A DNA stretch of 64,000 nt, from positions 9,457 to 73,456 of IMG/VR virus record IMGVR_UViG_3300042541_001664; one strand, written 5' to 3'. The stretch comes from a virus. Positions 6,924 to 61,149 of this stretch are shown piece by piece. The notes under the pieces were generated by a model that saw nothing but the letters and a program-made list of their open reading frames with translations, searched no databases and was not told the DNA's origin. How positions within the stretch are numbered: the stretch's first letter is position 1; each line of letters starts with the position of its first letter. Both the position numbers and the translations under genes were made by a program.

Positions 6924-6924
6924 A

Positions 6925-40640: not shown

Positions 40641-41231
40641 ATGGAAAAAGAAACATTAAAAAAGATATTCAATTTTCTTGAAAAGAATGATAACAGAAAT
40701 GTACCATTTATTTGGAAATTATTAAATAATGAACCATTCACAGAAGAAGAATTAAATATTAAAGGTGATTTAAATTTATCAGAAACACCCATAGAGTCAT
40801 TACCTAATGGTTTGGTAGTTAGTGGTGATTTAATTTTATCCGAATGTGAAAGTTTACGTTCTCTACCAAAAGGATTGAAAGTTGGAGGTAGTTTGGATTT
40901 ATCATATTCATTACATTTAGACTCATTACCTAATGGTTTAGTAGTTGGTGGTGATTTAATTTTATCTGGTTGTGAAAGTTTAGATTCCCTACCAGAAGGA
41001 TTGAAAGTTGGTGGTGAATTGCATTTAGATAATAGTGATGTTTATGAATTACCAAAAGGATTAGAGATTGGTGGGGATTTAATTGTTACTAATTCAGCAT
41101 TAGAGGAATATAGTGATAAAAAGTTAAGAAAAATGATTCAACCTGGGTTTATAAAAGGTAAGATATTTTATAATAATGAGGATGCTGATAGTGATGATGA
41201 TGATTATGATGAAGAAGATGATGATGATTGA
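40641..41231 (+). CDS. LRR-like solenoid protein, paralog 3 (5 repeats, acidic tail)
   Basis: same caps and repeats; ends DDDDYDEEDDDD. Confidence 0.9.
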   Translation: MEKETLKKIFNFLEKNDNRNVPFIWKLLNNEPFTEEELNIKGDLNLSETPIESLPNGLVVSGDLILSECESLRSLPKGLKVGGSLDLSYSLHLDSLPNGLVVGGDLILSGCESLDSLPEGLKVGGELHLDNSDVYELPKGLEIGGDLIVTNSALEEYSDKKLRKMIQPGFIKGKIFYNNEDADSDDDDYDEEDDDD

Positions 41232-41248
41232 TTTAAATTAAATATATA

Positions 41249-41782
41249 ATGAAAAAAGAAACACTAAAAAAGATATTTAAATTCCTTGAAGAAAATGGTG
41301 AGCATAATGCACCACTTATGTGGAAATTACAAAACAATATACCAATAACAGAAGATGATTTGATTGTTAATGGTGATTTGAATTTAACAAAAACAGATAT
41401 TGAATCATTACCAGATGGATTGAAAGTTGAGAATAATTTAAGTTTATATGGTTGTAAAAATATACAATCATTACCAGAAGGATTAGAAGTTGGGGGGCAT
41501 TTGGATTTGGGATATTCAAATATAACATCATTACCAAAAGGGTTGAAAGTTGGTGGGAGTTTATCTTTATTTGATTGTGCAAATATAACTTCACTACCAG
41601 AAGGCTTGAAGGTTGGGCGTAATTTAGATTTAGGTTTTACAAAAATAATCTCATTACCAAGAGGGTTAAAAGTTGAGGGCTTTATAGATTTGAATGGTAC
41701 AAAATTAACAGAATACACAGATGATGAATTAAGAAAAATGATTAAACCTGGATATATAAAAGGAAGAATAATTAAAGTTTAG
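41249..41782 (+). CDS. LRR-like solenoid protein, paralog 4 (5 repeats)
   Basis: same caps and repeats. Confidence 0.9.
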   Translation: MKKETLKKIFKFLEENGEHNAPLMWKLQNNIPITEDDLIVNGDLNLTKTDIESLPDGLKVENNLSLYGCKNIQSLPEGLEVGGHLDLGYSNITSLPKGLKVGGSLSLFDCANITSLPEGLKVGRNLDLGFTKIISLPRGLKVEGFIDLNGTKLTEYTDDELRKMIKPGYIKGRIIKV

Positions 41783-41785
41783 TTA

Positions 41786-42136
41786 ATGGAAAAAGAAACA
41801 CTAAAAAAAATACTTGATTTTCTTAAACAGAATGAGAATAGAAATATTCCAATTGCTTGGAAATTAATAAATAATGAACCATTAACAGAAAAGGAATTAA
41901 CTATTGATCGTGATTTGGATTTAAAAGGTTCAACTATTAAATCCTTACCAGAATATTTAAATATTAAAGATGATTTGGATTTATCTCACACAAAAATAAC
42001 CTCATTACCAAAAGGATTAAAAGTTGGTGAAAATTTATATATTAAAAACAGCCCATTAACTAAATATTCAGATTATGAAATAATAAAAATGATTGCGCCT
42101 GGATATATTCAAGGTAAAATAGATAGAAGTTGGTAA
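41786..42136 (+). CDS. LRR-like solenoid protein, paralog 5 (2 repeats)
   Basis: same caps and repeats. Confidence 0.9.
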   Translation: MEKETLKKILDFLKQNENRNIPIAWKLINNEPLTEKELTIDRDLDLKGSTIKSLPEYLNIKDDLDLSHTKITSLPKGLKVGENLYIKNSPLTKYSDYEIIKMIAPGYIQGKIDRSW

Positions 42137-42139
42137 ATT

Positions 42140-42634
42140 ATGGAAAAAGAAACACTAAAAAAGATATTCAATTTTCTTGAAGAAAATGAAAGACATCAAA
42201 CTCCATTTTTGTGGAAATGGGTAAATAATATACCATTAACAGAAAAAGATTTAAATATTGAAGGTGAATTGGATTTAACAAACACAGATATTAAATCATT
42301 ACCAGATGGATTGAAAGTTTCTGGGGATTTGAATTTAACTGAAACAGATATGGAATCATTACCAGAAAGATTGGAAGTTGCTGGTAATTTATATTTGGAT
42401 CACAGTTTTATAAAATCATTACCAAAGGACTTGAAGGTTGGTGGGGATTTGAGTATTGAAGCCACTTACATAAAATCATTACCAAGAGGCTTACAAGTTG
42501 GTGGTGATTTATATTTGAATGATAGTTATTTGTATAAGACCACATCCCTTAATGAATTAAGGGATATTGTAAAAAAAATGGTTGAACCTGGTTTTATTAA
42601 AGGTAATGTAATTTTTGATGACTATGATGATTGA
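42140..42634 (+). CDS. LRR-like solenoid protein, paralog 6 (4 repeats)
   Basis: same caps and repeats. Confidence 0.9.
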   Translation: MEKETLKKIFNFLEENERHQTPFLWKWVNNIPLTEKDLNIEGELDLTNTDIKSLPDGLKVSGDLNLTETDMESLPERLEVAGNLYLDHSFIKSLPKDLKVGGDLSIEATYIKSLPRGLQVGGDLYLNDSYLYKTTSLNELRDIVKKMVEPGFIKGNVIFDDYDD

Positions 42635-42651
42635 TTTAAATTAAATATATA

Positions 42652-43131
42652 ATGGAAAAAGAAACACTAAAAAAGATATTTGATTTTCTTGAAGAAAATG
42701 ATAATAAAAGAAAACCACTTATGTGGAAATTAAAAAACAATATACCAATAACAGAAAAAGATGATTTGATTGTTAAAGGTAGTTTGGATTTATCTAGTTC
42801 AAACATAACCTCACTACCAAAAGGTTTGGAAGTTAAAGGTGGTTTAAGTTTATATGAATCAGAAATAATCTCCTTACCAGAAGGCTTGAAGGTTGGGGGT
42901 GATTTAGATTTAAGAAATTCATATATAGAAAGTTTACCAGAAGGATTGGAAGTTGGGGATGAATTGGATTTAGCATATACATACATAACCTCACTACCAA
43001 AAGGCTTGAAAGTTGGGAGTATTTTGATTATAATTGAGAGTGAATTATTAAAATATTCAGATAAAGAAATAAGAAAAATGATTGAACCTGGGTATATTAA
43101 AGGGAAAATAATTAGAGAATATTATAGATAA
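42652..43131 (+). CDS. LRR-like solenoid protein, paralog 7 (4 repeats)
   Basis: same caps and repeats. Confidence 0.9.
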   Translation: MEKETLKKIFDFLEENDNKRKPLMWKLKNNIPITEKDDLIVKGSLDLSSSNITSLPKGLEVKGGLSLYESEIISLPEGLKVGGDLDLRNSYIESLPEGLEVGDELDLAYTYITSLPKGLKVGSILIIIESELLKYSDKEIRKMIEPGYIKGKIIREYYR

Positions 43132-43155
43132 TTTACTATATTTACATAAAAAAAC

Positions 43156-43953
43156 ATGGACAAAGAACTTTTAAAAGAAATATTATCAATCCCCTCGTAT
43201 TCAGGCAAAGAAACAAAACTGGTTAATTTTATTACTAGTTATTTAAATATTAACGATATCAAATTCACAATAGATGAAATGAAAAACATTTATTGTGTAA
43301 AAGGTGAAGCGGAGTATTATCCTTGTGTCGTAGCACACACAGATACTGTCCATAACAACACTTTTATAGATGTTAGGACTGAACTTAAACCAAACTCCAA
43401 AAGAGTCTTAAAAGAGGCGTATAAGGGTTATGATGTAAAAGGAAACCCAACAGGAATTGGTGGTGATGATAAGGCTGGAGTATTTGCTTGTCTTACTTTA
43501 TTAAAGGAATTACCAGTAATAAAAGCGGCCTTTTTTGTTTCAGAAGAAATTGGTTGCGTGGGATCATTAAACGCTGATGCAAATTTTTTCCTAGATGTGG
43601 GTTATGCAATTCAATTTGATGCCCCCTTTGATTGGATGGTAAGTGAAATATCTTCTGGGGTTAGATTATTTGACAGAGATACTGATTTCTTCACAAAGAT
43701 AGATAAGGTATTAACTGAAAACACAAATCCCCAATATCAATCACATCCATATACTGATATATTTGCCTTAAAGAAATTATTTGATTTTAGTTGTGTTAAT
43801 ATATCAATAGGATATTATGATTATCACACAAAGGATGAATATGTTGTTTTAGAAGATGTGGAGAAAGGAATTAAAATGGGCAGAGAAATGATAGAAAGTT
43901 TAGGATACGAGAAATATTACAAAAAATATAAACCATTAAGAATATTAGGATAA
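43156..43953 (+). CDS. M20/M28 family metallopeptidase
   Basis: SYSGKE, AHTDTV, GGDDKAG, SEEIG, YHT. Confidence 0.88.
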   Translation: MDKELLKEILSIPSYSGKETKLVNFITSYLNINDIKFTIDEMKNIYCVKGEAEYYPCVVAHTDTVHNNTFIDVRTELKPNSKRVLKEAYKGYDVKGNPTGIGGDDKAGVFACLTLLKELPVIKAAFFVSEEIGCVGSLNADANFFLDVGYAIQFDAPFDWMVSEISSGVRLFDRDTDFFTKIDKVLTENTNPQYQSHPYTDIFALKKLFDFSCVNISIGYYDYHTKDEYVVLEDVEKGIKMGREMIESLGYEKYYKKYKPLRILG

Positions 43954-43957
43954 AAAG

Positions 43958-43985
43958 AAAATGGGGGTCAATGACCCCCATTTTT
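43958..43985. terminator. bidirectional intrinsic terminator
   Basis: aaaatgggggtca/tgacccccatttt. Confidence 0.8.
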
Positions 43986-43987
43986 GT

Positions 43988-45988
43988 TTAGTTTATAATA
44001 ACATTTTCATCTGCGACAGTTAAAGCGTATTTTGTATTTTCTTTAACTATATTGTTTAATACTTCATCTGATATTAAATCTTCAATTTTATCTTGTATCG
44101 CTCTTTTAATTGGTCTAGCACCGTAAGTTTCATCGAATCCAACTTTTCTAATTAAATCAATTACTTTATCATCATAAGTGAATTCATAATTCGCATCACT
44201 CAATCTTTTCATTAATTTATTTAATTCTAATTTTGTTATTTCTTTAACATTATCATCTGTTAAAGTATTGAACACGATTGTTTCATCAATACGATTTAAG
44301 AACTCTGGCGTAAAGAATTTTTTCAATTCTTTTAATAACATTTCTTTTTTAGCTTCTTCATTTCCGTATTTTGAATTACTAAAACTAATACCAGTTCCAA
44401 AATCTTGGAATTTTTTAATCCCCAAGTTTGAGGTTAATACGATGATTGTATTTTTAAAATTGACTGTTTTACCTAGGCTATCAGTTAGATGACCATCATC
44501 TAATATTTGCAATAGTAAATTAAATACATCTTTGTGAGCCTTTTCAATCTCGTCAAATAAAATGATTGAATAGGGGTTATTTTTAACTTTTTCAGTTAAC
44601 TGACCACCTTCTTCGTGTGAAACATATCCTGGGGGTGAACCAATTAGTCTTGATATGGTGTGCTTTTCTTGGTATTCACTCATATCAATTCTTATAATTG
44701 ATTTTTCATCACCAAATAATTGTTTTGCTAATTGTTTGGCTAACATAGATTTACCTACACCAGTTGAGCCTAAAAATATAAAGCTACCGATTGGTTTATT
44801 TGGATCCTTAATGTTTAATTTGTTTCTCTTTATTGATTTAACAATTGAATTTACTGCCAAATCTTGACCAATTACATTTTCTTTAAGTTTTTTATCCAAA
44901 TCTATTAATACTTTCTTGTCGTCAACAGATAGATGAGATATTGGTATATTTGAGATTAATGAAATTGTTTCATACACATCATCTAACTCGACAATTTTCT
45001 TGTTTTCTAATGTATCTTTCTCAAATTTTTTATTTTCCGCTTCTAGTTTATTAAATAACTTTAATTCCTTATCTCTTATCTCGGCAGCCAATTCATATTG
45101 TTGGTTAATAACTACTTTCGTTTTCTCCGCTTTTAGTTCATTTATTTTTTCCTTCAATTTTTTAATTGATTCTGGAATTTTAATGTCAATCTGTAATTTT
45201 GCACCAACTTCATCAATAATATCAAAAGCCTTGTCTGGGAAAGCACGATCGGTAATATACCTATCAGCAAGTTTCACACAAGCACTAATAATTTCTTTAC
45301 CATACGAAACTTTATGATGGGACTCGTATTTGTCAATTGAATTATTAACAATTTGAATGGTTTCATCCACATTAGGTTGGGTTAATTTTATCTTTTGGAA
45401 TCTTCTGGCTAATGCCCCATCTTTCTCAAAAGATTTTTTATATTCATCAGTAGTTGTTGCACCAATACATTGTATTTCACCAGATGCTAATGCTGGCTTA
45501 AATATATTAGCCCCATCCATAGCACCAGAGGAATTTCCAGACCCAATTAATGTATGTATTTCATCAATAAAAATAATAACATTTGGATTTTCGTTCAATT
45601 CTTGAATTATAACTTTTAATCTTTCTTCAAATTGTCCCCTATATTTTGTTCCAGCAACAACCGATGTTAAATCTAAATTAACAATTCTTTTATTTAATAA
45701 ATTTTGAGGACCTTCACCTCTTGAAATCATTAGGGCTACACCCTCAACCAAGTTGGTTTTACCACAACCTGGGTCACCAACAATAATCGGATTATTTTTC
45801 TTTCGCCTTGATAGGATTTGAGCTAATCTCTTAACTTCTTTATCCCTACCAATAGACATATCTAACTTATTCATCTCTGCTAATTTAGATAAATCCCTAC
45901 TAAAATTATCTAAGACAGGTGTTTTAGACCCTGAGTTAGATTTCTTACCTTTCATTGCTTTTTCATCATCAAAGAAATCAACATTCAT
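43988..45988 (-). CDS. clpC: ClpC-type AAA+ ATPase lacking the N-terminal domain
   Basis: two NBDs (GDPGCGKT / IDEIH; GSTGVGKS / FDEIEK), UVR-like M domain QQYELAAEIRDKE, IGF-like loop GISF, GARP. Confidence 0.9.
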   Translation of the reverse strand: MNVDFFDDEKAMKGKKSNSGSKTPVLDNFSRDLSKLAEMNKLDMSIGRDKEVKRLAQILSRRKKNNPIIVGDPGCGKTNLVEGVALMISRGEGPQNLLNKRIVNLDLTSVVAGTKYRGQFEERLKVIIQELNENPNVIIFIDEIHTLIGSGNSSGAMDGANIFKPALASGEIQCIGATTTDEYKKSFEKDGALARRFQKIKLTQPNVDETIQIVNNSIDKYESHHKVSYGKEIISACVKLADRYITDRAFPDKAFDIIDEVGAKLQIDIKIPESIKKLKEKINELKAEKTKVVINQQYELAAEIRDKELKLFNKLEAENKKFEKDTLENKKIVELDDVYETISLISNIPISHLSVDDKKVLIDLDKKLKENVIGQDLAVNSIVKSIKRNKLNIKDPNKPIGSFIFLGSTGVGKSMLAKQLAKQLFGDEKSIIRIDMSEYQEKHTISRLIGSPPGYVSHEEGGQLTEKVKNNPYSIILFDEIEKAHKDVFNLLLQILDDGHLTDSLGKTVNFKNTIIVLTSNLGIKKFQDFGTGISFSNSKYGNEEAKKEMLLKELKKFFTPEFLNRIDETIVFNTLTDDNVKEITKLELNKLMKRLSDANYEFTYDDKVIDLIRKVGFDETYGARPIKRAIQDKIEDLISDEVLNNIVKENTKYALTVADENVIIN

Positions 45989-46041
45989 AGCTTTTATTTT
46001 TTTATAAATATCATACAATTTTCGGACTAATCAAATATTTT

Positions 46042-46133
46042 TGACAAATTGTCATAAATATAATAAAGAATATGACAAATAGTCATACTATATGACAAAA
46101 TGTCATATAAAAATAAATTGGCATTTAATTTGA
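46042..46133. promoter_or_regulatory. three TGACA-N3-(T/A)GTCA palindromes plus a sigma-54-like element
   Basis: 46042-46054, 46073-46085, 46093-46105; TGGCAT-N5-TTGA at 46119-46133. Confidence 0.7.
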
Positions 46134-46174
46134 CTTTATGAAAAAAAAAATAAACATTTATAAAAATTAAAATT

Positions 46175-46588
46175 ATGAAAGACAGAGATTATTTAGCAGA
46201 GTTATTATTTGGATTATCAAATCCATTTGCCCCATCAAGTTCGTTTGGGTTTACATCAGATTCCACTTATGGACCTTATGGGGTTAAACATAATACCTAT
46301 GATAGCGAATATGATATTGAATTAACTAAGGATGGCGCATACATATCCTTTGAAGTCCCCGGATTTACCAAAGATAACTTAGAAATATCTATAGAAGATA
46401 GAGTTATTATAATTAAAGGTGAAAGAATTATCAACAAGAAAGGTGTTGTTAAAAATATACTTCACAATTATAAAGTTGATAGTAACTTTAATGAATCAAA
46501 TATTGAAGCTACGGTATCAAATGGTATTTTAACATTATTTTTACCAAATTATATCGCTAAATCTAAAAAAACAATAACAATTAACTAA
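46175..46588 (+). CDS. Hsp20 / alpha-crystallin small heat-shock protein
   Basis: EVPGFTKDNLEI, IKGER, IEATVSNGILTL. Confidence 0.92.
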   Translation: MKDRDYLAELLFGLSNPFAPSSSFGFTSDSTYGPYGVKHNTYDSEYDIELTKDGAYISFEVPGFTKDNLEISIEDRVIIIKGERIINKKGVVKNILHNYKVDSNFNESNIEATVSNGILTLFLPNYIAKSKKTITIN

Positions 46589-47020
46589 ATGACAAAAGTA
46601 AAAATTGACACAGCAAAAGGAGTTATGATTGCTGAATTGTATGACAACGAAACTCCAATTACAGTTGATAATTTCAAAAAATTAATCAGCGAAGGCTTTT
46701 ATAATGGATTAAATTTCCATAGGGTTATTCCCAACTTTATGATGCAAGCAGGTTGTCCAAATGGAGTTGGAACTGGTGGCCCAGGATATACCATTAAATG
46801 TGAGGTTAATGCTGATAAGCAACACCACGATAGGGGGGTATTGAGTATGGCTCATGCTGGTAGGGATACTGGGGGATCACAATTCTTCATATGTTATAAT
46901 AGGCAAGGTGTTGCTCATTTGGATGGAAATCATACATGCTTTGGTAAAGTTGTTGATGGGTTGGATGTAATTGATTCAATTAGCCAAGGTGATTTAATAA
47001 ATAGTATTTCAATAATTTAA
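46589..47020 (+). CDS. cyclophilin-type peptidyl-prolyl isomerase
   Basis: FHRVIPNFMMQAG, SMAHAGRDTGGSQFFI, HLDGNHTCFGKV. Confidence 0.96.
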   Translation: MTKVKIDTAKGVMIAELYDNETPITVDNFKKLISEGFYNGLNFHRVIPNFMMQAGCPNGVGTGGPGYTIKCEVNADKQHHDRGVLSMAHAGRDTGGSQFFICYNRQGVAHLDGNHTCFGKVVDGLDVIDSISQGDLINSISII

Positions 47021-47024
47021 AAAT

Positions 47025-47489
47025 ATGAAAAATTTTATATTATTTTTGGGTTTAATATCCATTTTTTCTTGTGAAAAAGAAGTTGTGCAAACAAAAGATG
47101 TTGTGAATGCAAAACAAATAAATGCTGTTATTTTAACAATTGATTCTATAACAAAATATTCTAGCATAAATGAAGATTGGTTTTCAATTGCCTCAAATAA
47201 ATCTTATAATGTTTCAACTAAATTTTTTAATAATGATTCATTGGGTAATATCACCAACTTAACAAATATGATAATTGATAGTAATTATAGTGTTGAATAT
47301 AAATTATATCCATCAACCAAAAGTAATATAACTATTCTGGATAAGAATAAAACTGGGAATAATTTGGGATTACTTTTCAATATAAAGACAACAACACCTG
47401 AATTTGGTTTTATGGATGTTAAAGTTTATAACAATAACTGTGAATCTATTTTCAAATATCAATATTCATTTATTGTAGCAACACCTTAA
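47025..47489 (+). CDS. putative lipoprotein
   Basis: MKNFILFLGLISIFS-C lipobox. Confidence 0.75.
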   Translation: MKNFILFLGLISIFSCEKEVVQTKDVVNAKQINAVILTIDSITKYSSINEDWFSIASNKSYNVSTKFFNNDSLGNITNLTNMIIDSNYSVEYKLYPSTKSNITILDKNKTGNNLGLLFNIKTTTPEFGFMDVKVYNNNCESIFKYQYSFIVATP

Positions 47490-47516
47490 TATTATTTAAG
47501 TGTATTTTTCCATTAC

Positions 47517-47549
47517 ACCCCCATTCTTAATTAGTCTGGGGGTTTTTTT
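47517..47549 (+). terminator. intrinsic terminator, copy of 52603..52634
   Basis: acccccattcttaattagtctgggggttttttt. Confidence 0.75.
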
Positions 47550-47582
47550 ATTTTGTTATATTTATATATAAAATATCAAATC

Positions 47583-47825
47583 ATGGGAATCACAAAAGAA
47601 ATTATAAGTGGGACTAAAATTATTAACGAAATTAAATCTAGTAACATTAAGAAAAGCGAATATGACTTAAATACGAAAAAGTTATTGATTACATTCAATA
47701 ATGATATTATGTATGAGTATGACGATGTTCCACATAAATTATATACTCAATTTAGATTATCAGAATCTCAGGGTAAATTCTTTAGCACAAATATTGCTAA
47801 AAATTTTAAATATGTTAAAAAATGA
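47583..47825 (+). CDS. KTSC domain protein
   Basis: SSNIKKSEYD...LLITFNN..YEY..VP...SESQGKFF. Confidence 0.88.
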   Translation: MGITKEIISGTKIINEIKSSNIKKSEYDLNTKKLLITFNNDIMYEYDDVPHKLYTQFRLSESQGKFFSTNIAKNFKYVKK

Positions 47826-48565
47826 AAGATAATATAATTCAAAGTTTTGTAGTTAAAGACACCTTGAACCCCAAGGTTTGGGAATCACCAAATGATATAA
47901 AGAAAGCAAAAATTAAATCTGAAATTAAAAAGGGTTTATTAGATATTGCAAAAGAATTTATTGAATTTCTGGATGAGGAAGTCTTTATTGAGGACATAAT
48001 TCTTACTGGTTCATTATCAAATTATAATTGGTCGGAATATTCAGATTTTGATTTACATATTATTATTGATTTGGAACAATTTGATGACGAAGGAGAAGTA
48101 TATTTAAAATTATTTTCAGCAAAGAAATTAATATTTAATGATAAACACAATTTAACCATAAAAGGCTATGATGTTGAGGTTTATCCCCAAGATTCAAAAG
48201 AGAAACACACAGCAGAAGGGCAATATTCATTAATGAATAGTGAGTGGTTGGTTGTCCCCAAGAAAGAGAAACCCCCAATCAACAAGCCAAAATTAAAATT
48301 AAAAATTGACCATTGGGTTGAAGTTGTTAAAAAGACATTAATGACAGCTGATAAAGCATCATTAAAAGTTGCCAAAGAGAAAATGACCAAATTAAGTGAT
48401 AAATTAAGAAAATTCAGAAAACGAGGTTTGGAAACTGGGGGCGAATTTTCAAATGAAAATTTGGTATATAAATATTTAAGAAGGTCTGGGTTATTGGATA
48501 AAATATTTAATTATCAATATAAGAAGAGAACCAAAGAATTATCTATTGAGAATGAAATTTATTAA
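47822..48565 (+). CDS. Pol-beta superfamily nucleotidyltransferase
   Basis: TGSLSNYNWSEYSDFDLH (GS...DxD), YDVEVY. Confidence 0.8.
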   Translation: MKDNIIQSFVVKDTLNPKVWESPNDIKKAKIKSEIKKGLLDIAKEFIEFLDEEVFIEDIILTGSLSNYNWSEYSDFDLHIIIDLEQFDDEGEVYLKLFSAKKLIFNDKHNLTIKGYDVEVYPQDSKEKHTAEGQYSLMNSEWLVVPKKEKPPINKPKLKLKIDHWVEVVKKTLMTADKASLKVAKEKMTKLSDKLRKFRKRGLETGGEFSNENLVYKYLRRSGLLDKIFNYQYKKRTKELSIENEIY

Positions 48566-48629
48566 ATTTTATTTTTGCTATACTAATAATTAATATATTT
48601 GATATATTTATATATAAAAATAAAATAAA

Positions 48630-54429: not shown

Positions 54430-54438
54430 TAAAATTTT

Positions 54439-56313
54439 ATGGAAAATAATAATATTAATAGTAATGAAAATAAAACTGTTTGGCAAAGGTTGTCACACAC
54501 ATTTGGACCAAACTCATTATTAAATCAAGATGTTCCAACGTATAAATTTGATAAAAAAGAATTATTAAGGACACAGAATAAAGTTGAATTTGAAAGAGAA
54601 AAGTTACAAGCGCAGCAATCTTTTTATTTGGCAAATCAATGGGGTAAAATTGATAATCATTTATATACACAAGCGGTTTATTATGAACCAACTAGGTTAG
54701 CATCTGTCTATGATTTCGAAAGTATGGAGTATACCCCAGAAATCGGTGCAGCATTGGATATCTATTCAGAAGAATCAACAACGACAGATGAAAATGGTTT
54801 TATGTTACAAATATATTCTGAATCAAAAAGAATAAAATCGGTATTAACAGATTTATTTAATAACGCTTTAGATATCAACACAAACTTACCTATGTGGACA
54901 AGAAACGCTTGCAAATATGGGGATAATTTTGTTTATTTAAAACTGGATCCAGAAAAAGGTATTGTTGGTTGCAATCAATTGCCAAATATTGAAATTGAAA
55001 GATTAGAACCTGGTGGTTCAGATAAAACACCAGCATACGGTGATTTATCAGATAGGAATAAAACATTAATGTTTAAATGGAAAAATAAAAGTATGGAATT
55101 CCAACCTTGGGAAATTGCACACTTTAGAATACTGGGGGATGATAGAAAACTACCTTATGGTACATCTCTATTGGAAAAAGCAAGACGTACTTGGAAACAA
55201 CTTTTATTAGCTGAGGATGCTATGTTAATATATAGAACATCAAGAGCACCAGAACGTAGAGTATTTAAGGTTTTTGTCGGTAATATGGATGACAACGATG
55301 TTGAAGCGTATGTACAACGTGTTGCAAACAAATTCAAAAGGGAACAAATTGTTGATAACAAAACTGGTAATGTCGATATGCGTTTTAATCAAATGGCAGT
55401 TGACCAAGACTATTTTGTACCTGTAAGGGATCCAAATCAAGTAAGTCCAATTGACACATTACCTGGAGCAACAAATCTTTCTGAAATAGCAGATATTGAG
55501 TATATTCAGAAAAAATTGGTAACGGCATTAAGAATACCAAAAACATTTTTAGGATTTGAAGAAGCGTTTGGTGATGGTAAAGGTTTATCTGTTCAAGATA
55601 TTAGATTTGCTAGAACGATAAATAGAATACAAAAATGTATGATTGCAGAAATGAATAAAATTGCAATAATACATTTATTCTTATTGGGTTTTGAAGACGA
55701 AATATCTAATTTTACATTAGGATTAACTAATCCATCCACACAATCAGATTTATTAAAAATTGATATATGGAAAGAAAAGATTATGCTTTATAGAGATGCA
55801 GTTGCAGACCCAGGTAGTGGTATTGCCCCAGTTTCAGCTACATGGGCTAAAAAGCATATTTTTGGTTGGTCTGATGAAGAGATAAGATTGGATTTACAGC
55901 AACAAAGAATTGAAAAAGCAGCAGGTGAAGAATTGAAACAAACGCAATTAGTAATAAAGAAAACTGGTTTATTTGATAATATTGATAAACTATATGGTGA
56001 AGTTTCTGGTGCAACAACTGGGCAAGCAACAACCACTGAACCACCAATGGGTGGTGATATGGGGGGCGATATGGGCGGATTAGATATGGGTGGATTAGAT
56101 ATGGGCGGTGAAGCTCCTCTCCCACCACCAGCGGAAGCCCCACCAGCGGGTGAGACCGAAGGTGCACCAGGTTTAGCCCCAGAATCGAGAATACGAAATT
56201 TGAATATTTTGGTTGAAAACAATTATATTAATGGTCCAGAATATATGAAATTAACAAAAGGCCAAAATTCTTTAAACGAAATTGAGCAACAACTAAAAAA
56301 GTTATTAAACTAA
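54439..56313 (+). CDS. portal protein (T4 gp20-like)
   Basis: EDAMLIYRTSRAPERRVF, QDYFVP, IDTLPG, ALRIPK, DIRFAR. Confidence 0.95.
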   Translation: MENNNINSNENKTVWQRLSHTFGPNSLLNQDVPTYKFDKKELLRTQNKVEFEREKLQAQQSFYLANQWGKIDNHLYTQAVYYEPTRLASVYDFESMEYTPEIGAALDIYSEESTTTDENGFMLQIYSESKRIKSVLTDLFNNALDINTNLPMWTRNACKYGDNFVYLKLDPEKGIVGCNQLPNIEIERLEPGGSDKTPAYGDLSDRNKTLMFKWKNKSMEFQPWEIAHFRILGDDRKLPYGTSLLEKARRTWKQLLLAEDAMLIYRTSRAPERRVFKVFVGNMDDNDVEAYVQRVANKFKREQIVDNKTGNVDMRFNQMAVDQDYFVPVRDPNQVSPIDTLPGATNLSEIADIEYIQKKLVTALRIPKTFLGFEEAFGDGKGLSVQDIRFARTINRIQKCMIAEMNKIAIIHLFLLGFEDEISNFTLGLTNPSTQSDLLKIDIWKEKIMLYRDAVADPGSGIAPVSATWAKKHIFGWSDEEIRLDLQQQRIEKAAGEELKQTQLVIKKTGLFDNIDKLYGEVSGATTGQATTTEPPMGGDMGGDMGGLDMGGLDMGGEAPLPPPAEAPPAGETEGAPGLAPESRIRNLNILVENNYINGPEYMKLTKGQNSLNEIEQQLKKLLN

Positions 56314-56337
56314 TAATATTTATATAAAAAAATAATT

Positions 56338-57039
56338 ATGAAATTCGGTGAAGTTAAAACAATTGTAGAAAATAATTTAATTGATTCTGTTAAGGATAAA
56401 AGTATTTTTAAAGAAAATATAAAAAACTTTAAAAAGCATTTCTTAAAAGACCCAAACTTATCTAAGTTATACTTAATATATGATGATTTATTAAAGCCTA
56501 GGGGGTTAAATGAAGAAGAGGCTAATAAGTATTTAACCGAGGGAATTAATTGGGCAAAATCTTTACTTAAAACCACTAACATACCAATAGTTAAGAATAA
56601 AATAAATGAAAACAATTATCAAATTATTGATTCATTAGTATATGAGTCAGCAAGAACAATTGATGAATCTTTGGATTTTAAAAATAAAATATTAACCATA
56701 CTTCAAACAAAGCCTTCGGATAATACAAAAATCATTAAGTTACCAATCAGCACAATGGTTAAAATATCAAATGAAAAAATTAGCGAATATCTGGGTAGAT
56801 TTGATGAATCTTCGAGAAAAGAATTAATTTCATTATTGTCAGAAAACAAAGATGATTTGAAGAATAAATTTAAAGACTTGAAAGAAAGTACTATAATAAA
56901 ATTAAATTCATTAAAAGAGTCTGAAAATGATTTAGAAGTGAAAAATAAAATAGATAAAACAATTACAAAAGTCACATTAGAAAGTTTTGATATTTTAAAT
57001 TATCATACATTAAATAAACTAAATGAATCACTTAATTAA
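56338..57039 (+). CDS. head-module hypothetical protein
   Basis: 233 aa between portal and protease; ATATTTAT upstream. Confidence 0.8.
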   Translation: MKFGEVKTIVENNLIDSVKDKSIFKENIKNFKKHFLKDPNLSKLYLIYDDLLKPRGLNEEEANKYLTEGINWAKSLLKTTNIPIVKNKINENNYQIIDSLVYESARTIDESLDFKNKILTILQTKPSDNTKIIKLPISTMVKISNEKISEYLGRFDESSRKELISLLSENKDDLKNKFKDLKESTIIKLNSLKESENDLEVKNKIDKTITKVTLESFDILNYHTLNKLNESLN

Positions 57040-57098
57040 AACAATTATTTGACGTAACCATTATTTTTCGTTATACTTTTGACATAATAACTAAGTAA

Positions 57099-57539
57099 AT
57101 GAAAAATGGGAAGAAGGTAAAACTAAAAATTTATAACAATTTAAAAATATTCTATGGTACAATTGATTACAAAGAACTGAAATCTATTTACATCACTATA
57201 CAGGCTTGGGCTGAACCAAAAATTTATAGTGAAAATTGGAAGAGAATTGTATTATCACAAAGTAGAGAAATAAAACATACTATCTACGATAATATAACCA
57301 ATAATATTTTTTATGAAAATATTATTGTAGATTTGGATGTTAGATACAGCGGTATCGAGATTGAAAAAAAATCATTTATGAATCTTGAAATCACACTATT
57401 AACCAAACCAAATATTGATTTTAAGGCTCAATCTACCAAAGATTCAGTTAAGAAAATAATCAGACAAGTTTGTATGAATAATTTAAATAGGAATAAATAT
57501 TTTGATTTTTATTTAACAAAAAGAGATTTAATTGTTTAA
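57099..57539 (+). CDS. hypothetical protein
   Basis: 146 aa ORF. Confidence 0.8.
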   Translation: MKNGKKVKLKIYNNLKIFYGTIDYKELKSIYITIQAWAEPKIYSENWKRIVLSQSREIKHTIYDNITNNIFYENIIVDLDVRYSGIEIEKKSFMNLEITLLTKPNIDFKAQSTKDSVKKIIRQVCMNNLNRNKYFDFYLTKRDLIV

Positions 57540-57576
57540 ATTAATATATTTTAATATTTATTATTAAAATAATATT

Positions 57577-58278
57577 ATGAATACTCTGAGAATATTAGAA
57601 GCAAATGAAATTGGTCACGGGATATTAATAGAATCCGATGCTGGGTGGATTAACCCCAAAGACCAATTAAATGTTAATTTAATACAAGAAAACAAAAAGT
57701 TAGATTATAAGAACCCTTTTGAATTTTATGCTGTATTGCAAAAGCACGATGTACCAAATAGAAATGGTAGAACATATCCCGAAAAAATATTAAGAAGGGA
57801 GGCTGAAAGATACAAGCAAATTATTGAAAAGGGTTTATCTACATCCGAATTAAATCACCCCGAATCATCCTTAATTGACTTAGATAGAGTTGCCCACTTA
57901 ATAACAGAAATTTGGTGGGATGACAATATATTAATGGGTAAATTATTGCTATTAACCTCTCCTGGCTTTCACCAGAGCGGTGTTGTATCAACCAAGGGTG
58001 ATGTTGCCGCAAATCTAATGAGGCAAGGAGTAAGCCTAGGAATCAGTTCTAGGGGGGTTGGATCACTTAAAAAAGTTGGGGAGAAAAATGAGGTTCAAGA
58101 TGACTTCGAATTGATTTGTTTTGATTTGGTTTCATCGCCATCAACGCCTGGGGCATACTTGTTCTCAAATAAGGAAGATAGGCATAAGTATGATGAAAAA
58201 CTAGAAGAAGAAAAGAAAATTGACCCCTCAACTAATATATTAAAATTAATGAATAAACTTGATAGTTATTTAAAATAA
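57577..58278 (+). CDS. prohead core protein protease (T4 gp21-like)
   Basis: NRNGRTYP, ELNHP, GISSRGVGSL, FDLVSSPSTPGA. Confidence 0.95.
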   Translation: MNTLRILEANEIGHGILIESDAGWINPKDQLNVNLIQENKKLDYKNPFEFYAVLQKHDVPNRNGRTYPEKILRREAERYKQIIEKGLSTSELNHPESSLIDLDRVAHLITEIWWDDNILMGKLLLLTSPGFHQSGVVSTKGDVAANLMRQGVSLGISSRGVGSLKKVGEKNEVQDDFELICFDLVSSPSTPGAYLFSNKEDRHKYDEKLEEEKKIDPSTNILKLMNKLDSYLK

Positions 58279-58279
58279 A

Positions 58280-58987
58280 ATGGAACCCAACACATTAAAA
58301 AACATATTTAATTTTCTTGAAAAGAATGATAACAGAAATGTACCATTTATATGGAAAATGAAAAATAATATGCCATTAACAGAAGAAGATTTGAATGTTA
58401 AAGGTGATTTGCATTTATCAAATAGAAACATAACCTCACTACCAAAAGGCTTGAAAGTTTATGGGAATATGAGTTTAGGGTATAGTAAAGTAAGAAAATT
58501 ACCAGAAGGATTAGAAGTTGGCGGCACGCTAAATGTTTCTGATAGTATGATAAGAACATTACCAAAAGGATTAAAAGTTAATGATAATCTGATTATGTCT
58601 TTTACAAGTATAGGAATACTACCAAAAGGATTGGAAGTTGGTGGAGTTATCTATGCAATAAATAGTCATATATTTAATATAGGTGAAATACCAAAAGGTG
58701 TAATAACACAAGGAATTGTAACTACCTCCGAATTAATAGTTAATTCAAATTTAACAATAACTGATGATTTGGATTTATCATTTACAAACATAACCTCACT
58801 ACCAAAAGGATTAAAAGTTAATGGCAATCTGTTTTTAGGGGATTCAAGTATAAAATCATTACCAGAAGGATTACAAGTTGGTGGTAATTTAAATATTAGA
58901 AATACACGATTAGCAAAACGTTCAGATGAATATTTACTAAAAATGATTGGTCCAACTGGCAATATAAAAGGTTCAATAAATAGATAA
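58280..58987 (+). CDS. LRR-like solenoid protein, paralog 8 (about 7 repeats, one degenerate)
   Basis: same caps and repeats. Confidence 0.9.
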   Translation: MEPNTLKNIFNFLEKNDNRNVPFIWKMKNNMPLTEEDLNVKGDLHLSNRNITSLPKGLKVYGNMSLGYSKVRKLPEGLEVGGTLNVSDSMIRTLPKGLKVNDNLIMSFTSIGILPKGLEVGGVIYAINSHIFNIGEIPKGVITQGIVTTSELIVNSNLTITDDLDLSFTNITSLPKGLKVNGNLFLGDSSIKSLPEGLQVGGNLNIRNTRLAKRSDEYLLKMIGPTGNIKGSINR

Positions 58988-58989
58988 TA

Positions 58990-59391
58990 ATGGAAATAGC
59001 AACATTAAAAAACATATTTAATTTCCTTGAAGTAAATGAAAAAAAATTATCCATAAAATGGAAAATGATGAATAAAATCCCCTTTACTAAAGAACAATTA
59101 TATGTCAAAGGTGATTTGGATTTACAAGGGGAAGACATAGAACAATTGCCAGCAGGGTTATATGTTAAACGTAATTTATTGTTAAATGCCACACCAATAA
59201 AAAAATTACCAAAAGGTTTAAGAGTTGGTGGTGATTTGCAGTTACAAGATTGTGAAAATTTAAAATCACTACCAAAAGATTTAAAAGTTCGGGGTAATAT
59301 ATGGCTTGGTGGTACACCATTAGGAAGAATGTCAGATGAGAAAATATTAAACATGGTAAAACCAGATGGCTATATAGGTAACATATATTAA
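58990..59391 (+). CDS. LRR-like solenoid protein, paralog 9 (3 repeats)
   Basis: same caps and repeats. Confidence 0.9.
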   Translation: MEIATLKNIFNFLEVNEKKLSIKWKMMNKIPFTKEQLYVKGDLDLQGEDIEQLPAGLYVKRNLLLNATPIKKLPKGLRVGGDLQLQDCENLKSLPKDLKVRGNIWLGGTPLGRMSDEKILNMVKPDGYIGNIY

Positions 59392-59392
59392 A

Positions 59393-59983
59393 ATGAAAGA
59401 AGAAACATTAGGAAAGATATTTGAATTTATCAAACAAAAGGGCGAACAAAATTTACCATTATTTTGGAAATTGAAAAATGATATACCATTAACAGAAGAA
59501 GATTTGACTTTTAAAGGTGATTTAAATTTAGAAAATTCAAAAATAACCTCCTTACCATATGGATTAAAAGTTGAAGGTGATTTGATGTTAACCTTTTCAG
59601 AAATAACCTCATTACCAGATGATTTACAAGTTGGTGGTCATTTAAACATAATTGGTTGTGATGCCATAAACTCATTACCAAAAGGATTAAAAGTTGGTGA
59701 CAGCATTCAATTATCACCAAAACGAATAGTTTCCATTGGGGAAGGATTGTTTGTTGGTGGAGATTTAAATTTATTTAATAGCCAAATAAAATCATTACCC
59801 CAAGGAGTTAAAATTGGGGGAGAGTTAATATTATCCTTTACAAAAATAGAAACATTACCAAAAGGTTTGATAGTTAAAGGTGGTTTGGATATTGCTGGAA
59901 CACCATTAGAAAAGTATTCAAATGATGAATTAAGAAAAATGGTTAAACCTGGAGTTATAAAAGGGTCAATAATTAGAGATTAG
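59393..59983 (+). CDS. LRR-like solenoid protein, paralog 10 (6 repeats)
   Basis: same caps and repeats. Confidence 0.9.
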   Translation: MKEETLGKIFEFIKQKGEQNLPLFWKLKNDIPLTEEDLTFKGDLNLENSKITSLPYGLKVEGDLMLTFSEITSLPDDLQVGGHLNIIGCDAINSLPKGLKVGDSIQLSPKRIVSIGEGLFVGGDLNLFNSQIKSLPQGVKIGGELILSFTKIETLPKGLIVKGGLDIAGTPLEKYSNDELRKMVKPGVIKGSIIRD

Positions 59984-59985
59984 AA

Positions 59986-61149
59986 ATGAAAATAGAAACA
60001 TTAAAAAGAATATTTGATTTTCTTGAAAATAAAGAAACCAAAAAACATAAAGCCAAAGCAACTTTAAAGTGGAAGTTGTTTTTTAATGAACCATTAACAA
60101 AAGATGATTTGATTGTTAATGGGGATTTAAATTTGGCAAATTCAAAAATAACATCTTTGCCAGAAGGATTGGAAATTAAGGGTACTTTGGATTTAAGAAA
60201 TTGCACAAGTTTAACATCCTTACCACAAGGATTGGAAATTAAGGGTTCTTTGGATTTAAAAAATTGCACAAGTTTAACATCATTACCACAAGGATTGAAA
60301 GTTGGTAGTGATTTAAATTTATCTAATTGCACAAGTTTAACATCATTACCACAAGGATTGAAAGTTAAGGGGGATTTAGATTTATATGGTTGTAAAAACT
60401 TAAAATACTTACCAATAGGATTGATAGTTGTTGGTGATATAAATTTACAATACTCAACAATAACAACCTTACCAGAAGGATTACAAGTTGGTGGTGATTT
60501 GAATTTATATAATTGCAAAAGTTTAAAATACCTACCAAAAGTATTAAAAGTTGGTGGTTTTTTAAATTTAAACAATTGCACAAGTTTAACATCACTACCA
60601 GAAGGATTAGAAGTTGGGGGTACATTATATTTAAAGAATTGTTCCAAATTAAAATCATTACCAACAGGATTGAAAATTGGAGAGGCTTTGGAATTGAATG
60701 ATACAAATATAACTACTCTCCCAAAAGATTTGAAATTTGTTCCTAATTTGGGTTTATCAGGTTCTAAAATAATGTCATTACCAGATAATTTACATGTTAG
60801 GGGTAGGTTAGATTTGGCTTTTTGTGAAAATTTAACTTCATTACCAACTGGATTAAAAGTTGATGGTGATTTAATATTAACCTTTGCAAAAATAACCTCA
60901 TTACCAGATAATTTACAAGTTGGCAAATATTTGGATTTGGGTAATACAAAAATAACTTCACTACCTAAAGGGCTAAAAGTTGGTAGTAGATTGAATATAA
61001 GTGGTACACAAATAACCTCATTACCAAAAGGACTAAAAGTTGGAGAAAATTTACTTATAATGAACACAAATTTAAAAAAATATACTGATGAAGAATTAAG
61101 AGAAATGGTTAAGCCTGGATTTATAAAAGGTGAAATATATAGAGGATAA
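59986..61149 (+). CDS. LRR-like solenoid protein, paralog 11 (15 repeats)
   Basis: same caps; mixed 21-aa and 22-aa (NCTSLTSLP) repeats. Confidence 0.9.
   Translation: MKIETLKRIFDFLENKETKKHKAKATLKWKLFFNEPLTKDDLIVNGDLNLANSKITSLPEGLEIKGTLDLRNCTSLTSLPQGLEIKGSLDLKNCTSLTSLPQGLKVGSDLNLSNCTSLTSLPQGLKVKGDLDLYGCKNLKYLPIGLIVVGDINLQYSTITTLPEGLQVGGDLNLYNCKSLKYLPKVLKVGGFLNLNNCTSLTSLPEGLEVGGTLYLKNCSKLKSLPTGLKIGEALELNDTNITTLPKDLKFVPNLGLSGSKIMSLPDNLHVRGRLDLAFCENLTSLPTGLKVDGDLILTFAKITSLPDNLQVGKYLDLGNTKITSLPKGLKVGSRLNISGTQITSLPKGLKVGENLLIMNTNLKKYTDEELREMVKPGFIKGEIYRG

What the first reader, a model, noticed from the sequence alone, without database searches (positions are those of the whole stretch)
40641..61149. 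Phage repertoire of 11 variable LRR-like solenoids with constant caps (VLR-like design)
Seen: 11 paralogs at four loci (11659-12210, 16950-17429, five at 40641-43131, four at 58280-61149). Each has a conserved N-cap (MEKETLKKIFxFLE...WK..N.PLTEEDL.IKGDL.L) and C-cap (L.KYSD.ELRKMI.PG.IKG.I). Between the caps lie 2 to 15 repeats (5,4,5,5,2,4,4,~7,3,6,15) of 21-22 aa. The SLP.GL.VGG part is nearly fixed, while the residues around xLxLxx vary. There are no signal peptides, and three copies have acidic tails. Established: in LRR solenoids the xLxL beta-strand forms the binding face, and constant caps with variable modules is the design of lamprey VLRs. Inference: this is a recombination-diversified library of cytoplasmic binders, for example anti-defence or host-takeover inhibitors. 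The best candidate for an undescribed system here.
Basis: partly seen in the sequence, partly recalled or inferred. Interest (0 to 1): 0.88.

Follow-up and report, generated by a model that had tools for sequence, protein, structure and literature searches.

The report
Phage family of capped LRR binders
An uncultured giant T4-like lake phage spends about a tenth of its DNA on dozens of small leucine-rich-repeat proteins that share end caps but differ on one face, probably an inherited set of protein binders whose targets are unknown.

Summary
All 11 genes are intact paralogs, and 8 more lie just upstream of the window, giving 19 in a 73-kb phage fragment (13.6% of it). Related records carry 26-39 copies. 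The repeats are 20-21 aa, not 21-22.

A model (pLDDT 91) and profile searches show an LRR beta-solenoid. The nearest solved structure is Vibrio FlrP. The capped family was found only in viral sequence and has no described function.

Variation is highest at the outward positions of the xLxL strand (10, 12, 14). Their dN/dS is 0.97 (0.76-1.22) against 0.16 for the framework, so positive selection is not shown.

Recombination is real but local: one twin pair with identical caps and a diverged core, an orphan C-cap remnant, and gene gain or loss between close relatives.

There is no VLR-like programmed assembly. Every copy is complete, no reverse transcriptase is present, and orthologs in a close relative differ by 0-8 nt.

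The arrays sit behind a late-type TATTTATA motif or inside the head operon, so the proteins are probably made late. Capsid loading and injection, as for T4 internal proteins, is possible but untested.

The scan found this family before on other DNA.

The parts
11659..12210 (-). LRR paralog B1: 183 aa, 5 repeats, acidic tail, pI 4.55
   Evidence: AF2 model pLDDT 91.2
16950..17429 (+). LRR paralog C1: 159 aa, 4 repeats
40641..41231 (+). LRR paralog D1: 196 aa, 5 repeats, 16-residue D/E-rich tail, pI 4.21
   Evidence: 0 of 591 nt differ from relative G005
41249..41782 (+). LRR paralog D2: 177 aa, 5 repeats
41786..42136 (+). LRR paralog D3: 116 aa, 2 repeats
42140..42634 (+). LRR paralog D4: 164 aa, 4 repeats, short acidic tail
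42652..43131 (+). LRR paralog D5: 159 aa, 4 repeats
58280..58987 (+). LRR paralog E1: 235 aa, 6 canonical + about 2 degenerate repeats, pI 9.44. It starts 2 nt after the prohead protease stop
58990..59391 (+). LRR paralog E2: 133 aa, 3 repeats, pI 9.28
59393..59983 (+). LRR paralog E3: 196 aa, 5 canonical + 1 degenerate repeat
59986..61149 (+). LRR paralog E4: 387 aa, 15 repeats, pI 9.09. Absent from the same array in relative G004
   Evidence: PF23952 LRR_EndoS 29.4 bits
40617..40624 (+). TATTTATA promoter-like motif 16 nt before the D1 start codon
56317..56324 (+). TATTTATA motif heading the run of genes 56338, 57099, prohead protease and E1-E4
12834..12841 (-). TATTTATA motif before gene 12229-12816, which is followed by B1
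16622..16629 (+). TATTTATA motif before gene 16646-16942, which is followed by C1
57577..58278 (+). Context: T4-type prohead core protease (Peptidase_S77) directly upstream of the E array
   Evidence: PF03420, E 4.7e-23; the same neighbourhood in relatives

Best explanation
These genes are an inherited multigene family of small, signal-peptide-less LRR beta-solenoid proteins, specific to a lineage of uncultured giant T4-like freshwater phages.

Each protein has three parts:
- an N-cap of two helices plus a first strand unit, about 52 aa;
- 2-15 repeats of 20-21 aa;

The caps close the ends of the solenoid. The repeats stack with two short strands per turn. The outward residues of the L-x-L strand and of the following segment (positions 10, 12, 14, 15, 17) differ from repeat to repeat and from paralog to paralog. 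They form the probable ligand face, so each paralog would bind a different protein.

The repertoire changes in three ways: gene duplication and loss inside tandem arrays, gain or loss of whole repeats, and occasional recombination anchored in the conserved caps. It does not change by any programmed or somatic process.

The arrays lie behind the same TATTTATA motif as terminase, head and endolysin genes, or inside the head operon. I therefore infer that the proteins are made late, together with the virion.

My committed reading is that they are binders of variable host proteins, with defence or other host factors as the most plausible class. They would act either in the producing cell late in infection or in the next cell after delivery with the DNA.

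Shown: the fold, the anatomy, the distribution, the pattern of variability, the recombination footprints and the genomic context. Inferred: late expression, binding function, and the nature of the targets.
For: Fold:
- The A1 profile hits LRR structures. The best is 8z5u chain 0 (FlrP) at E 1.1e-34, followed by designed LRRs, SspH1, LGR4 and VLRs.
- The AF2 model of B1 has mean pLDDT 91.2, helices 3-16 and 23-28, paired short strands every 20 residues, and C-terminal helices 151-154 and 157-164.
- Foldseek puts 8z5u_0 on top in the PDB (TM 0.56). In BFVD the top hit is 'Leucine-rich repeat [uncultured Caudovirales phage]' (TM 0.70).

Variability: entropy is 0-0.9 bits at L1, P2, L5, V7, L11, L13 and I18, against 3.0-3.3 bits at positions 10, 12, 14, 15 and 17. 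The modelled strands fall on repeat positions 6-7 and 11-12.

Selection: over 53 independent close pairs drawn from 217 distinct genes, dN/dS is 0.16 for the framework, 0.97 for positions 10/12/14 and 0.62 for 15/17/19.

Family size and range:
- N-cap copies per record are 19, 39, 31, 33 and 26.
- The N-cap profile finds 399 clusters at 50% identity with E <= 1e-3 among 1.84 billion representatives. Nearly all hits start at residue 1 of proteins of 46-258 aa.
- Atlas clusters are 85-100% viral and unnamed.
- No capped member was found in 185,579 species genomes.
- Gene lengths fall into steps of about 20 aa: 113-116, 132-139, 153-161, 174-184, 192-198, 215-221 and so on.

Turnover and recombination:
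- Twin genes A6 and A7 share 29 of 29 N-terminal codons and 33 of 34 identical-residue C-terminal codons, but only 26 of 37 in the core.
- A start-less C-cap remnant lies between A1 and A2.
- Relative G005 has a sixth gene in the D array and an extra gene at the B1 locus.
- The array after the protease holds 4, 3 and 3 different genes in G000, G004 and G001.

Late context:
- The gene order is terminase, portal, protease, E array, DUF4494, scaffold-like gene, MCP.
- TATTTATA lies in sense orientation 11-25 nt before 22 of 102 ORFs, against 6 for the reverse orientation. These ORFs include terminase, head genes, an endolysin and D1.
Against: No binding partner, expression data or virion proteomics exist for any member.

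dN/dS at the variable face is not above 1, so relaxed constraint explains the variability as well as diversifying selection does. That estimate is crude (Nei-Gojobori, ungapped same-length pairs) and is confounded by recombination. The N-terminal helix also gives 0.97.

The promoter reading rests on a motif and its neighbours only. The 8-gene A array has no such motif within 60 nt of its first gene.

I could not obtain model coordinates. The claim that the variable residues lie on one face rests on the strand register and the alternation pattern, not on measured solvent exposure.

Between two close relatives the D-array genes are as conserved as, or more conserved than, their neighbours: 98.4-100% against 74-97%. 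There is therefore no sign of fast evolution on that time scale.
Confidence: 0.55

Rival explanations
1. Capsid-loaded ejection proteins. The N-terminal amphipathic helix ending in F-L-E would act like the T4 capsid targeting sequence and be cut by the prohead protease. The LRR rods would be packed with the DNA and injected into the next host, where they would block defence proteins, as T4 IPI* does.
For: One array sits directly after the Peptidase_S77 prohead protease and before the scaffold-like gene and MCP. This holds in 3 of 3 records examined.

14 of 19 copies have F-L-E at residues 12-14. The MCP N-terminus carries F-L-E at 34-36 and L-I-N-E at 57-60, just before the Gp23 domain starts at residue 69.

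E1, E2 and E4 are basic, with pI 9.1-9.4.

The T4 head review describes T-even internal proteins as a diverse set of defence proteins that share only a capsid targeting sequence (PMC3012670, passages read).

Many unrelated proteins of this phage carry amphipathic N-terminal leaders ending in (L/I)xE. One metagenomic LRR protein, P0266, carries such a leader in place of the family's own N-terminus.
Against: The same helix-plus-WK motif occurs internally, after another domain, in P0027 (residues 218-261 of 530) and P0271 (144-188 of 332). It is also modelled with pLDDT 81-85. Both fit a structural cap rather than a leader.

5 of 19 copies have K instead of E at position 14.

14 of 19 copies are acidic (pI 6.75 or below, 12 of them 5.6 or below) and some have poly-acidic tails. 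In contrast, the T4 internal proteins contact DNA through lysines (PMC3012670).

There is no proteomic evidence.
Confidence: 0.25
2. A VLR-like or otherwise programmed diversity generator. Functional genes would be assembled or mutated during the phage life cycle from repeat cassettes or by a diversity-generating retroelement.
For: The design is constant caps with a variable number of modules. A few exact runs are shared between paralogs: 10 runs of 30 nt or more, the longest 89, 41 and 40 nt.
Against: All 19 copies are complete ORFs with both caps. The only capless piece is one 18-codon C-cap remnant.

Shared runs lie mostly in the caps, and the longest inside the repeats is 32 nt.

RVT_1 was found in 0 of 5 records, including one that is 90% complete.

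D1 and D5 are identical, and D2 and D3 differ by 1 nt, between two records whose flanks are only 74-78% identical.

The caps lack the cysteine-rich LRRNT/LRRCT motifs of VLRs (the VLR features are recalled, not from a call).
Confidence: 0.03
3. A structural or assembly role. The LRR proteins would be accessory head-scaffold, decoration or chaperone components, and their variety would have no ligand-specific meaning.
For: One array lies in the head operon and the context is late-type. The caps are conserved and could dock to a common partner.
Against: Copy number and content of the head-operon array differ between close relatives, and E4 is absent from G004. This is unusual for structural parts. 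Most arrays lie outside the structural module. Charge ranges from pI 4.2 to 9.4.
Confidence: 0.1
4. A non-adaptive expansion. A repeat-rich gene would have multiplied by unequal crossing-over in a large, permissive genome and now drifts under weak constraint.
For: Overall dN/dS is 0.55 and is about 1 at the variable positions. There are tandem arrays with overlapping stop and start codons, one remnant and one truncated copy.
Against: All 19 copies keep intact frames and both caps. The framework dN/dS is 0.16. The family persists at 26-39 copies in records whose proteases are only 88% identical. It takes 13.6% of the contig.
Confidence: 0.07

Closest known systems
Vibrio FlrP (PDB 8z5u/8z5w/8z60), an LRR protein bound to the rod of the polar flagellar motor
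   Same: It has the same repeat type (LPxGLxVxGxLxL..., about 20-21 aa) and a beta-solenoid fold. It is the best sequence hit (E 1.1e-34) and the best fold hit (TM 0.56).
   Different: FlrP has a Sec signal peptide and sits in the periplasm on the flagellar rod (bioRxiv 10.64898/2025.12.04.692373, passages read). The phage proteins have no signal peptide. The match covers only the repeats, profile positions 37-149. The phage N-cap and C-cap are absent, and FlrP is a single gene rather than a multigene family.
T-even phage internal proteins (IPI, IPII, IPIII) with a capsid targeting sequence
   Same: They are diverse small phage proteins that share only a conserved N-terminal element, are made with the head, and act as anti-defence factors in the next host (PMC3012670, passages read). 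Here one array lies in a T4-type head operon next to an S77 protease.
   Different: The fold is unrelated. The phage N-terminal helix looks like a structural LRR cap. Packaging and cleavage are untested here.
Lamprey and hagfish variable lymphocyte receptors
   Same: The architecture is an LRR solenoid with constant caps, a variable number of modules and variable residues on the beta-strand face. VLR chains appear among the profile hits at E 2.5e-6 and weaker.
   Different: VLRs are assembled somatically from cassettes, are secreted or membrane-anchored, and have cysteine-rich caps (recalled, not from a call). Here every copy is a complete inherited gene without a signal peptide.
Repeat-protein multigene families of giant eukaryotic viruses (FNIP/FGxxFN LRR, ankyrin and similar)
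   Same: They are large paralogous families of repeat proteins in big viral genomes, with unknown ligands. For PMC9525666 and PMC5753266 I saw only the search listings and the starts of the abstracts. Giant-virus LRR proteins appear as weak fold hits.
   Different: The repeat class, caps and hosts all differ. I found no report of an expansion of this size in a bacteriophage.
PcfJ-like or DUF6745 proteins with C-terminal repeats of the same type
   Same: The repeats are the same. In P0027 and P0271 the N-cap motif is the same too, and P0027 ends with a similar C-cap.
   Different: They carry an extra N-terminal domain of 140-280 aa and are 330-660 aa long. PF14284 was found in 0 of 5 of the phage records studied here.

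Membership tests
Leucine-rich repeat superfamily | Tandem 20-30-aa repeats with an LxxLxLxx(N/C)xL-type core | tested here: met
   65 internal repeats of 20-21 aa have L11-x-L13-x-x-(S/T/C)16-x-(I/L)18. The usual Asn is replaced by S/T/C. In the Pfam scan of 10 of the 11 window genes, only E4 passes a gathering score (PF23952); the LRR_1/3/4/8 models stay below theirs.
Leucine-rich repeat superfamily | Solenoid fold with a parallel beta-sheet, similar to solved LRR structures | tested here: met
   AF2 pLDDT is 91.2 with periodic short strands. Foldseek hits in the PDB are LRR proteins only. 77 PDB sequences match the profile at E <= 1, and the 60 listed are all LRR proteins.
FlrP-like flagellar rod spacer | Sec signal peptide and periplasmic location | tested here: not met
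   The N-termini are hydrophilic helices (MEKETLK...) with no hydrophobic stretch.
FlrP-like flagellar rod spacer | Homology over the whole protein including its ends | tested here: not met
   The alignment covers profile positions 37-149 only, that is the repeats.
Lamprey-type VLR system | An incomplete germline gene plus flanking capless LRR cassettes used for assembly | tested here: not met
   19 of 19 copies are complete with both caps. The only fragment is one C-cap remnant.
Lamprey-type VLR system | Secreted or anchored protein with cysteine-rich LRRNT and LRRCT caps | tested here: not met
   Each protein has 0-3 Cys (8 in E4), and these lie in repeat position 16, not in the caps. There is no signal peptide.
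Diversity-generating retroelement target | A reverse transcriptase with a template/variable repeat pair | tested here: not met
   RVT_1 was found in 0 of 5 records, while the control genomes were positive. Template repeats were not searched for separately.
T4-type internal (ejection) proteins | N-terminal targeting sequence ending in a (L/I)xE protease site | tested here: inconclusive
   F-L-E is at residues 12-14 in 14 of 19 copies and K replaces E in 5. The same helix is internal in fusion proteins.
T4-type internal (ejection) proteins | Presence in the mature virion and cleavage by the prohead protease | not testable with these tools
   No cultured relative exists: the phage collection gives only a repeat-level hit to Edwardsiella phage Edno5. 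No proteomics are available.

The most novel reading that the evidence does not exclude
A giant phage carries a heritable, recombining library of some 40 or more rod-shaped LRR inhibitors. They would be made with the head, loaded into the capsid and injected with the DNA, so that each infection starts with a pre-formed cocktail of binders against many alternative host defence proteins. This would be a far larger, antibody-like counterpart of the T4 internal proteins.
Probability: 0.22. Interest if true: 0.85.

Novelty: new variant of a known kind. Interest (0 to 1): 0.62.

Why it matters
Tailed phages rarely devote a tenth of their genome to one paralogous family. A phage-only family of small, stable LRR solenoids with a defined variable face would be a natural set of protein binders shaped by phage-host conflict.

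If the targets are host defence or takeover factors, each paralog points to a host protein that matters during infection. The fixed scaffold with interchangeable 20-aa modules could also serve as a binder framework.

If the proteins are packed and injected, the idea of internal proteins as anti-defence cargo would extend from a handful of proteins in T4 to a large library.

If the proteins prove to be ordinary structural accessories, the finding is only a curiosity of genome expansion.

Tried and rejected
General homogenisation of the caps by gene conversion. At identical residues, codon identity exceeds the codon-usage expectation by the same factor in the leader (1.21), the rest of the N-cap (1.22), the first repeat (1.26), the last repeat (1.21) and the C-cap (1.20). 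I reject this as a general process. Only single cases stand: A6/A7 and a 41-nt run shared by D1 and E1.

Module shuffling between paralogs inside this contig. Only 10 exact runs of 30 nt or more exist among 171 gene pairs, and the longest run inside the repeats is 32 nt. This is not convincing.

Homodimer or end-to-end stacking of B1. Complex prediction with 2 copies gave 'no answer' (score 0.00). This is no evidence either way.

Host assignment. The ClpC-like ATPase finds relatives at 42-49% identity in many phyla, and portal relatives are at most 38% identical.

Isolated phages. tblastn of B1 against 50,697 phage records hit 2 records of one phage (Edwardsiella phage Edno5), in the repeats only.

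PHROGs gave nothing significant for 3 of the 4 family members scanned; E4 gave hits only to families of unknown function and one weak stretch-less match (E 3.6e-4, no domain passing the limit) to a CsrA-like regulator family.

Literature. Searches found no paper on this phage family. The 'PcfJ' search returned only C. elegans plasmid names. Supplements of papers were not opened.

Population and RNA evidence. 19 lake-water metagenome runs hold at least half of the sampled words, and 5 RNA runs hold 6-13%.

I had no access to model coordinates, so I computed no solvent exposure.

Full report
WHAT IS THERE. The window is bases 9457-73456 of a 73,456-bp IMG/VR virus record that CheckV rates 23% complete. 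It has 27-32% G+C. It carries a T4-type head module in this order: large terminase (PF03237), portal (PF07230), prohead core protease (PF03420), a very acidic scaffold-like gene, and a Gp23-type major capsid protein.

Eight further intact paralogs lie at contig 3343-6985, just upstream of the window. A profile of the N-cap alone finds exactly 19 copies in the record. Together they take 9,954 of 73,456 nt, or 13.6%. Within the arrays the genes are tightly coupled, with gaps of -4 to +17 nt and one gap of 52 nt.

ANATOMY. Each protein has an N-terminal part of 52-63 aa, then 2-15 LP-anchored repeats, then a tail of 40-60 aa. Among the repeat spacings, 44 are 20 aa and 21 are 21 aa.

The framework positions are L1, P2, G4, L5, V7, L11, L13, S/T/C16, I/L18 and S20, with entropy of 0-1.6 bits. 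Positions 10, 12, 14, 15 and 17 reach 3.0-3.3 bits and position 19 reaches 2.8.

An AlphaFold2 model of the 183-aa copy, built on a 48-row alignment, has mean pLDDT 91.2. It shows helices 3-16 and 23-28, two short strands per repeat, and a C-cap with helices 151-154 and 157-164 followed by two more short strands. Mapped onto the repeat register, the strands fall on positions 6-7 and 11-12. By the usual in-out alternation of a strand, positions 10, 12 and 14 point outward from the L11/L13 strand. This is an inference, because no coordinates were available to me.

KINSHIP.
- Pfam: in the scan of 10 of the 11 window genes, only the 387-aa copy passes a gathering score.
- PDB by sequence: a profile of the 11 copies hits LRR structures only. 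The best is chain 0 of 8z5u at E 1.1e-34.
- Identity of that chain: it is FlrP, a 21.5-kDa periplasmic LRR protein with a Sec signal peptide that binds the rod of the Vibrio polar flagellar motor (bioRxiv 10.64898/2025.12.04.692373, passages read). The match covers the repeats only.
- PDB and BFVD by fold: Foldseek agrees (8z5u_0, TM 0.56). In BFVD the best match is a protein named only 'Leucine-rich repeat' from an uncultured tailed phage (TM 0.70).
- Metagenome proteins: the word-index search scored 8,000 candidates, of which 3,547 passed E <= 1e-3. They are either short capped proteins of 154-241 aa or longer proteins of 350-660 aa. In the longer ones, repeats of the same type follow another domain, such as PcfJ-like or DUF6745.
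- N-cap alone: searched against 1.84 billion cluster representatives, the N-cap finds 399 clusters at E <= 1e-3 and 122 at E <= 1e-10. Nearly all are at residue 1 of proteins of 46-258 aa.
- Range: Atlas clusters near the protein are 85-100% viral and unnamed. A pattern scan of 185,579 bacterial and archaeal species genomes found no capped member. The capped family therefore appears to be phage-only and uncharacterised.
- Literature: searches found no paper on it.

HOW MANY, AND HOW STABLE. Related IMG/VR records carry 39 copies (270 kb, 90% complete), 31, 33 and 26 copies. Across 217 distinct genes collected from viral loci, lengths fall into steps of about 20 aa. Whole repeats are thus gained and lost.

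A close relative (G005, 38 kb) shows how the set changes.
- D1 and D5 are identical in nucleotides. D2 and D3 differ by 1 nt, C1 by 2 and D4 by 8.
- G005 has a sixth gene between D3 and D4. It is 176 aa and 70% identical to D4.
- G005 also has an extra gene at the B1 locus, 153 aa long, that ends before a C-cap.
- The tmRNA-to-D5 block is 98.4-100% identical between the two records, while the genes on either side are 74% and 78% identical.

The array after the prohead protease is conserved in place but not in content:
- G000 has four genes, of 235, 133, 196 and 387 aa.
- G004, whose protease is 98% identical, has three, of 253, 133 and 196 aa.
- G001, whose protease is 88% identical, has three other genes, of 221, 166 (from an internal start) and 154 aa.

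The set varies.

RECOMBINATION AND SELECTION. The twin genes at contig 5722-6138 and 6135-6548 share 29 of 29 N-terminal codons and 33 of 34 identical-residue C-terminal codons. In the core only 37 of 70 residues are identical, and only 26 of those 37 use the same codon. Point mutation under selection cannot produce this pattern, so it is a mosaic.

A start-less C-cap remnant of 18 codons lies between two genes of the first array. D1 and E1, which lie 17 kb apart, share a 41-nt exact run in the N-cap.

As a general rule, however, the caps are not homogenised. The excess of identical codons over the codon-usage expectation is 1.20-1.26 in caps and repeats alike.

Over 53 independent close pairs (80-99.5% identical, same length), Nei-Gojobori dN/dS is 0.55 overall. 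It is 0.16 (bootstrap 0.11-0.21) for the framework, 0.97 (0.76-1.22) for positions 10/12/14, and 0.62 for 15/17/19. The variable face thus evolves about six times more freely than the framework, but positive selection is not demonstrated.

No reverse transcriptase is present in any of 5 records. Nothing supports programmed diversification.

WHEN AND WHERE THEY ARE MADE.

The octamer occurs 37 times in the window against 21 expected, and no shuffle of 100 reached 37. In the whole contig it lies in sense orientation 11-25 nt before the start codon of 22 of 102 ORFs. The reverse orientation does so for 6.

The 22 ORFs include:
- the large terminase;
- the first gene of the run that leads through the protease into the E array;
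- the gene heading the DUF4494, scaffold-like and MCP run;
- an endolysin;
- a ClpC-like ATPase;
- D1;
- the genes immediately upstream of B1 and of C1.

Several of these sites follow terminator-like GGGGTTTTTT runs. The 8-gene array outside the window has no such motif before its first gene. I infer that most arrays are late genes. This is an inference from context, not a measurement.

THE CAPSID-LOADING IDEA. Several observations make a T4-internal-protein-like role attractive.
- The first 14 residues form an amphipathic helix ending in F-L-E in 14 of 19 copies.
- One array adjoins the S77 protease.
- The MCP propeptide carries F-L-E and L-I-N-E.
- Three of the four head-operon copies are basic.
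- According to the T4 head review, the T-even internal proteins share only a targeting sequence (PMC3012670, passages read).

Other observations argue against it.
- The same helix and WK motif occur in the middle of longer fusion proteins (P0027, P0271).
- The helix is modelled at pLDDT 81-85, which fits a structural cap.
- 5 of 19 copies lack the glutamate.
- 14 of 19 copies are acidic (pI 6.75 or below, 12 of them 5.6 or below).

I keep this as the main rival and as the most novel reading, at about one chance in four.

VERDICT. The fold and the design reading are right. The VLR analogy is a resemblance of architecture only.

The most likely account is an inherited, slowly recombining multigene family of LRR binders made late in infection by a lineage of giant T4-like lake phages. 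Runs holding the sequence are lake-water metagenomes. The ligands are unknown.

The same family was noted earlier by this scan on other genomes, including one follow-up report that reached a similar reading.

LIMITS.
- The complex prediction gave no answer.
- Paper supplements were closed and not consulted.

Noticed in passing
window 40059-40480 (-): The phage encodes a tmRNA (Rfam RF00023, 82.1 bits, full length; ARAGORN also calls it). It lies directly upstream of the D array. The block from tmRNA to D5 is 98.4-100% identical to relative G005, while the flanks are 74-78% identical.
   Followed up: partly
window, 37 sites, e.g. 40617, 47559, 48605, 52645, 56317, 61194: TATTTATA is an orientation-specific promoter-like motif 11-25 nt before 22 of 102 ORFs of the contig. 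These include terminase, head genes and an endolysin. It is probably this lineage's late promoter.
   Followed up: partly
window 19939, 26658, 22738, 6925, 7529, 24701, 33329, 36747, 51238; L031 177-1016, 1937-2497, 2556-3239: Many unrelated proteins start with amphipathic leaders ending in (L/I)xE, often followed by Q (for example MKTIRLTE...IIxEQ). A metagenomic LRR protein (P0266) carries such a leader. They may be capsid-targeting or protease-processed leaders.
   Followed up: partly
window 418-6558 (-): Six consecutive ORFs begin MN(V/I)L(S/E)LF(D/A)G, which looks like an array of C5 DNA methyltransferases. An unrelated ORF sits at 1379-1969. I did not scan them against family libraries.
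   Followed up: no
window 43156-45988: An M42/M20-type peptidase and a ClpC-like double AAA+ ATPase with a UVR motif lie right after the D array. The ATPase is only 78% identical to the G005 copy, while the peptidase is 97% identical.
   Followed up: partly
window 12905-13531, 19310-19843, 38644-39360, 39398-39997, 13534-15339: There are several cell-wall enzymes: GH19-like (below the Pfam cut-off), an amidase-type endolysin, an M23 peptidase and a glucosaminidase. There is also an M12 metalloprotease with an N-terminal hydrophobic leader.
   Followed up: no
L031 3694-3745 (contig, - strand): A start-less 18-codon remnant of a family C-cap lies between two intact LRR genes.
   Followed up: yes
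G005 (L094) 37402-37863: An extra LRR gene at the B1 locus of the close relative has B1's N-cap, a different repeat core resembling metagenome protein P0032, and stops before the C-cap. It may be a pseudogene.
   Followed up: partly
loci L104-L148: The first 20 residues of metagenome protein P0271 recur at 85-90% identity at the start of genes on dozens of unrelated viral contigs. This is another portable N-terminal leader.
   Followed up: no
window 9992-10145 (-): tRNA-Pro(TGG) and tRNA-Met(CAT) genes lie side by side.
   Followed up: no
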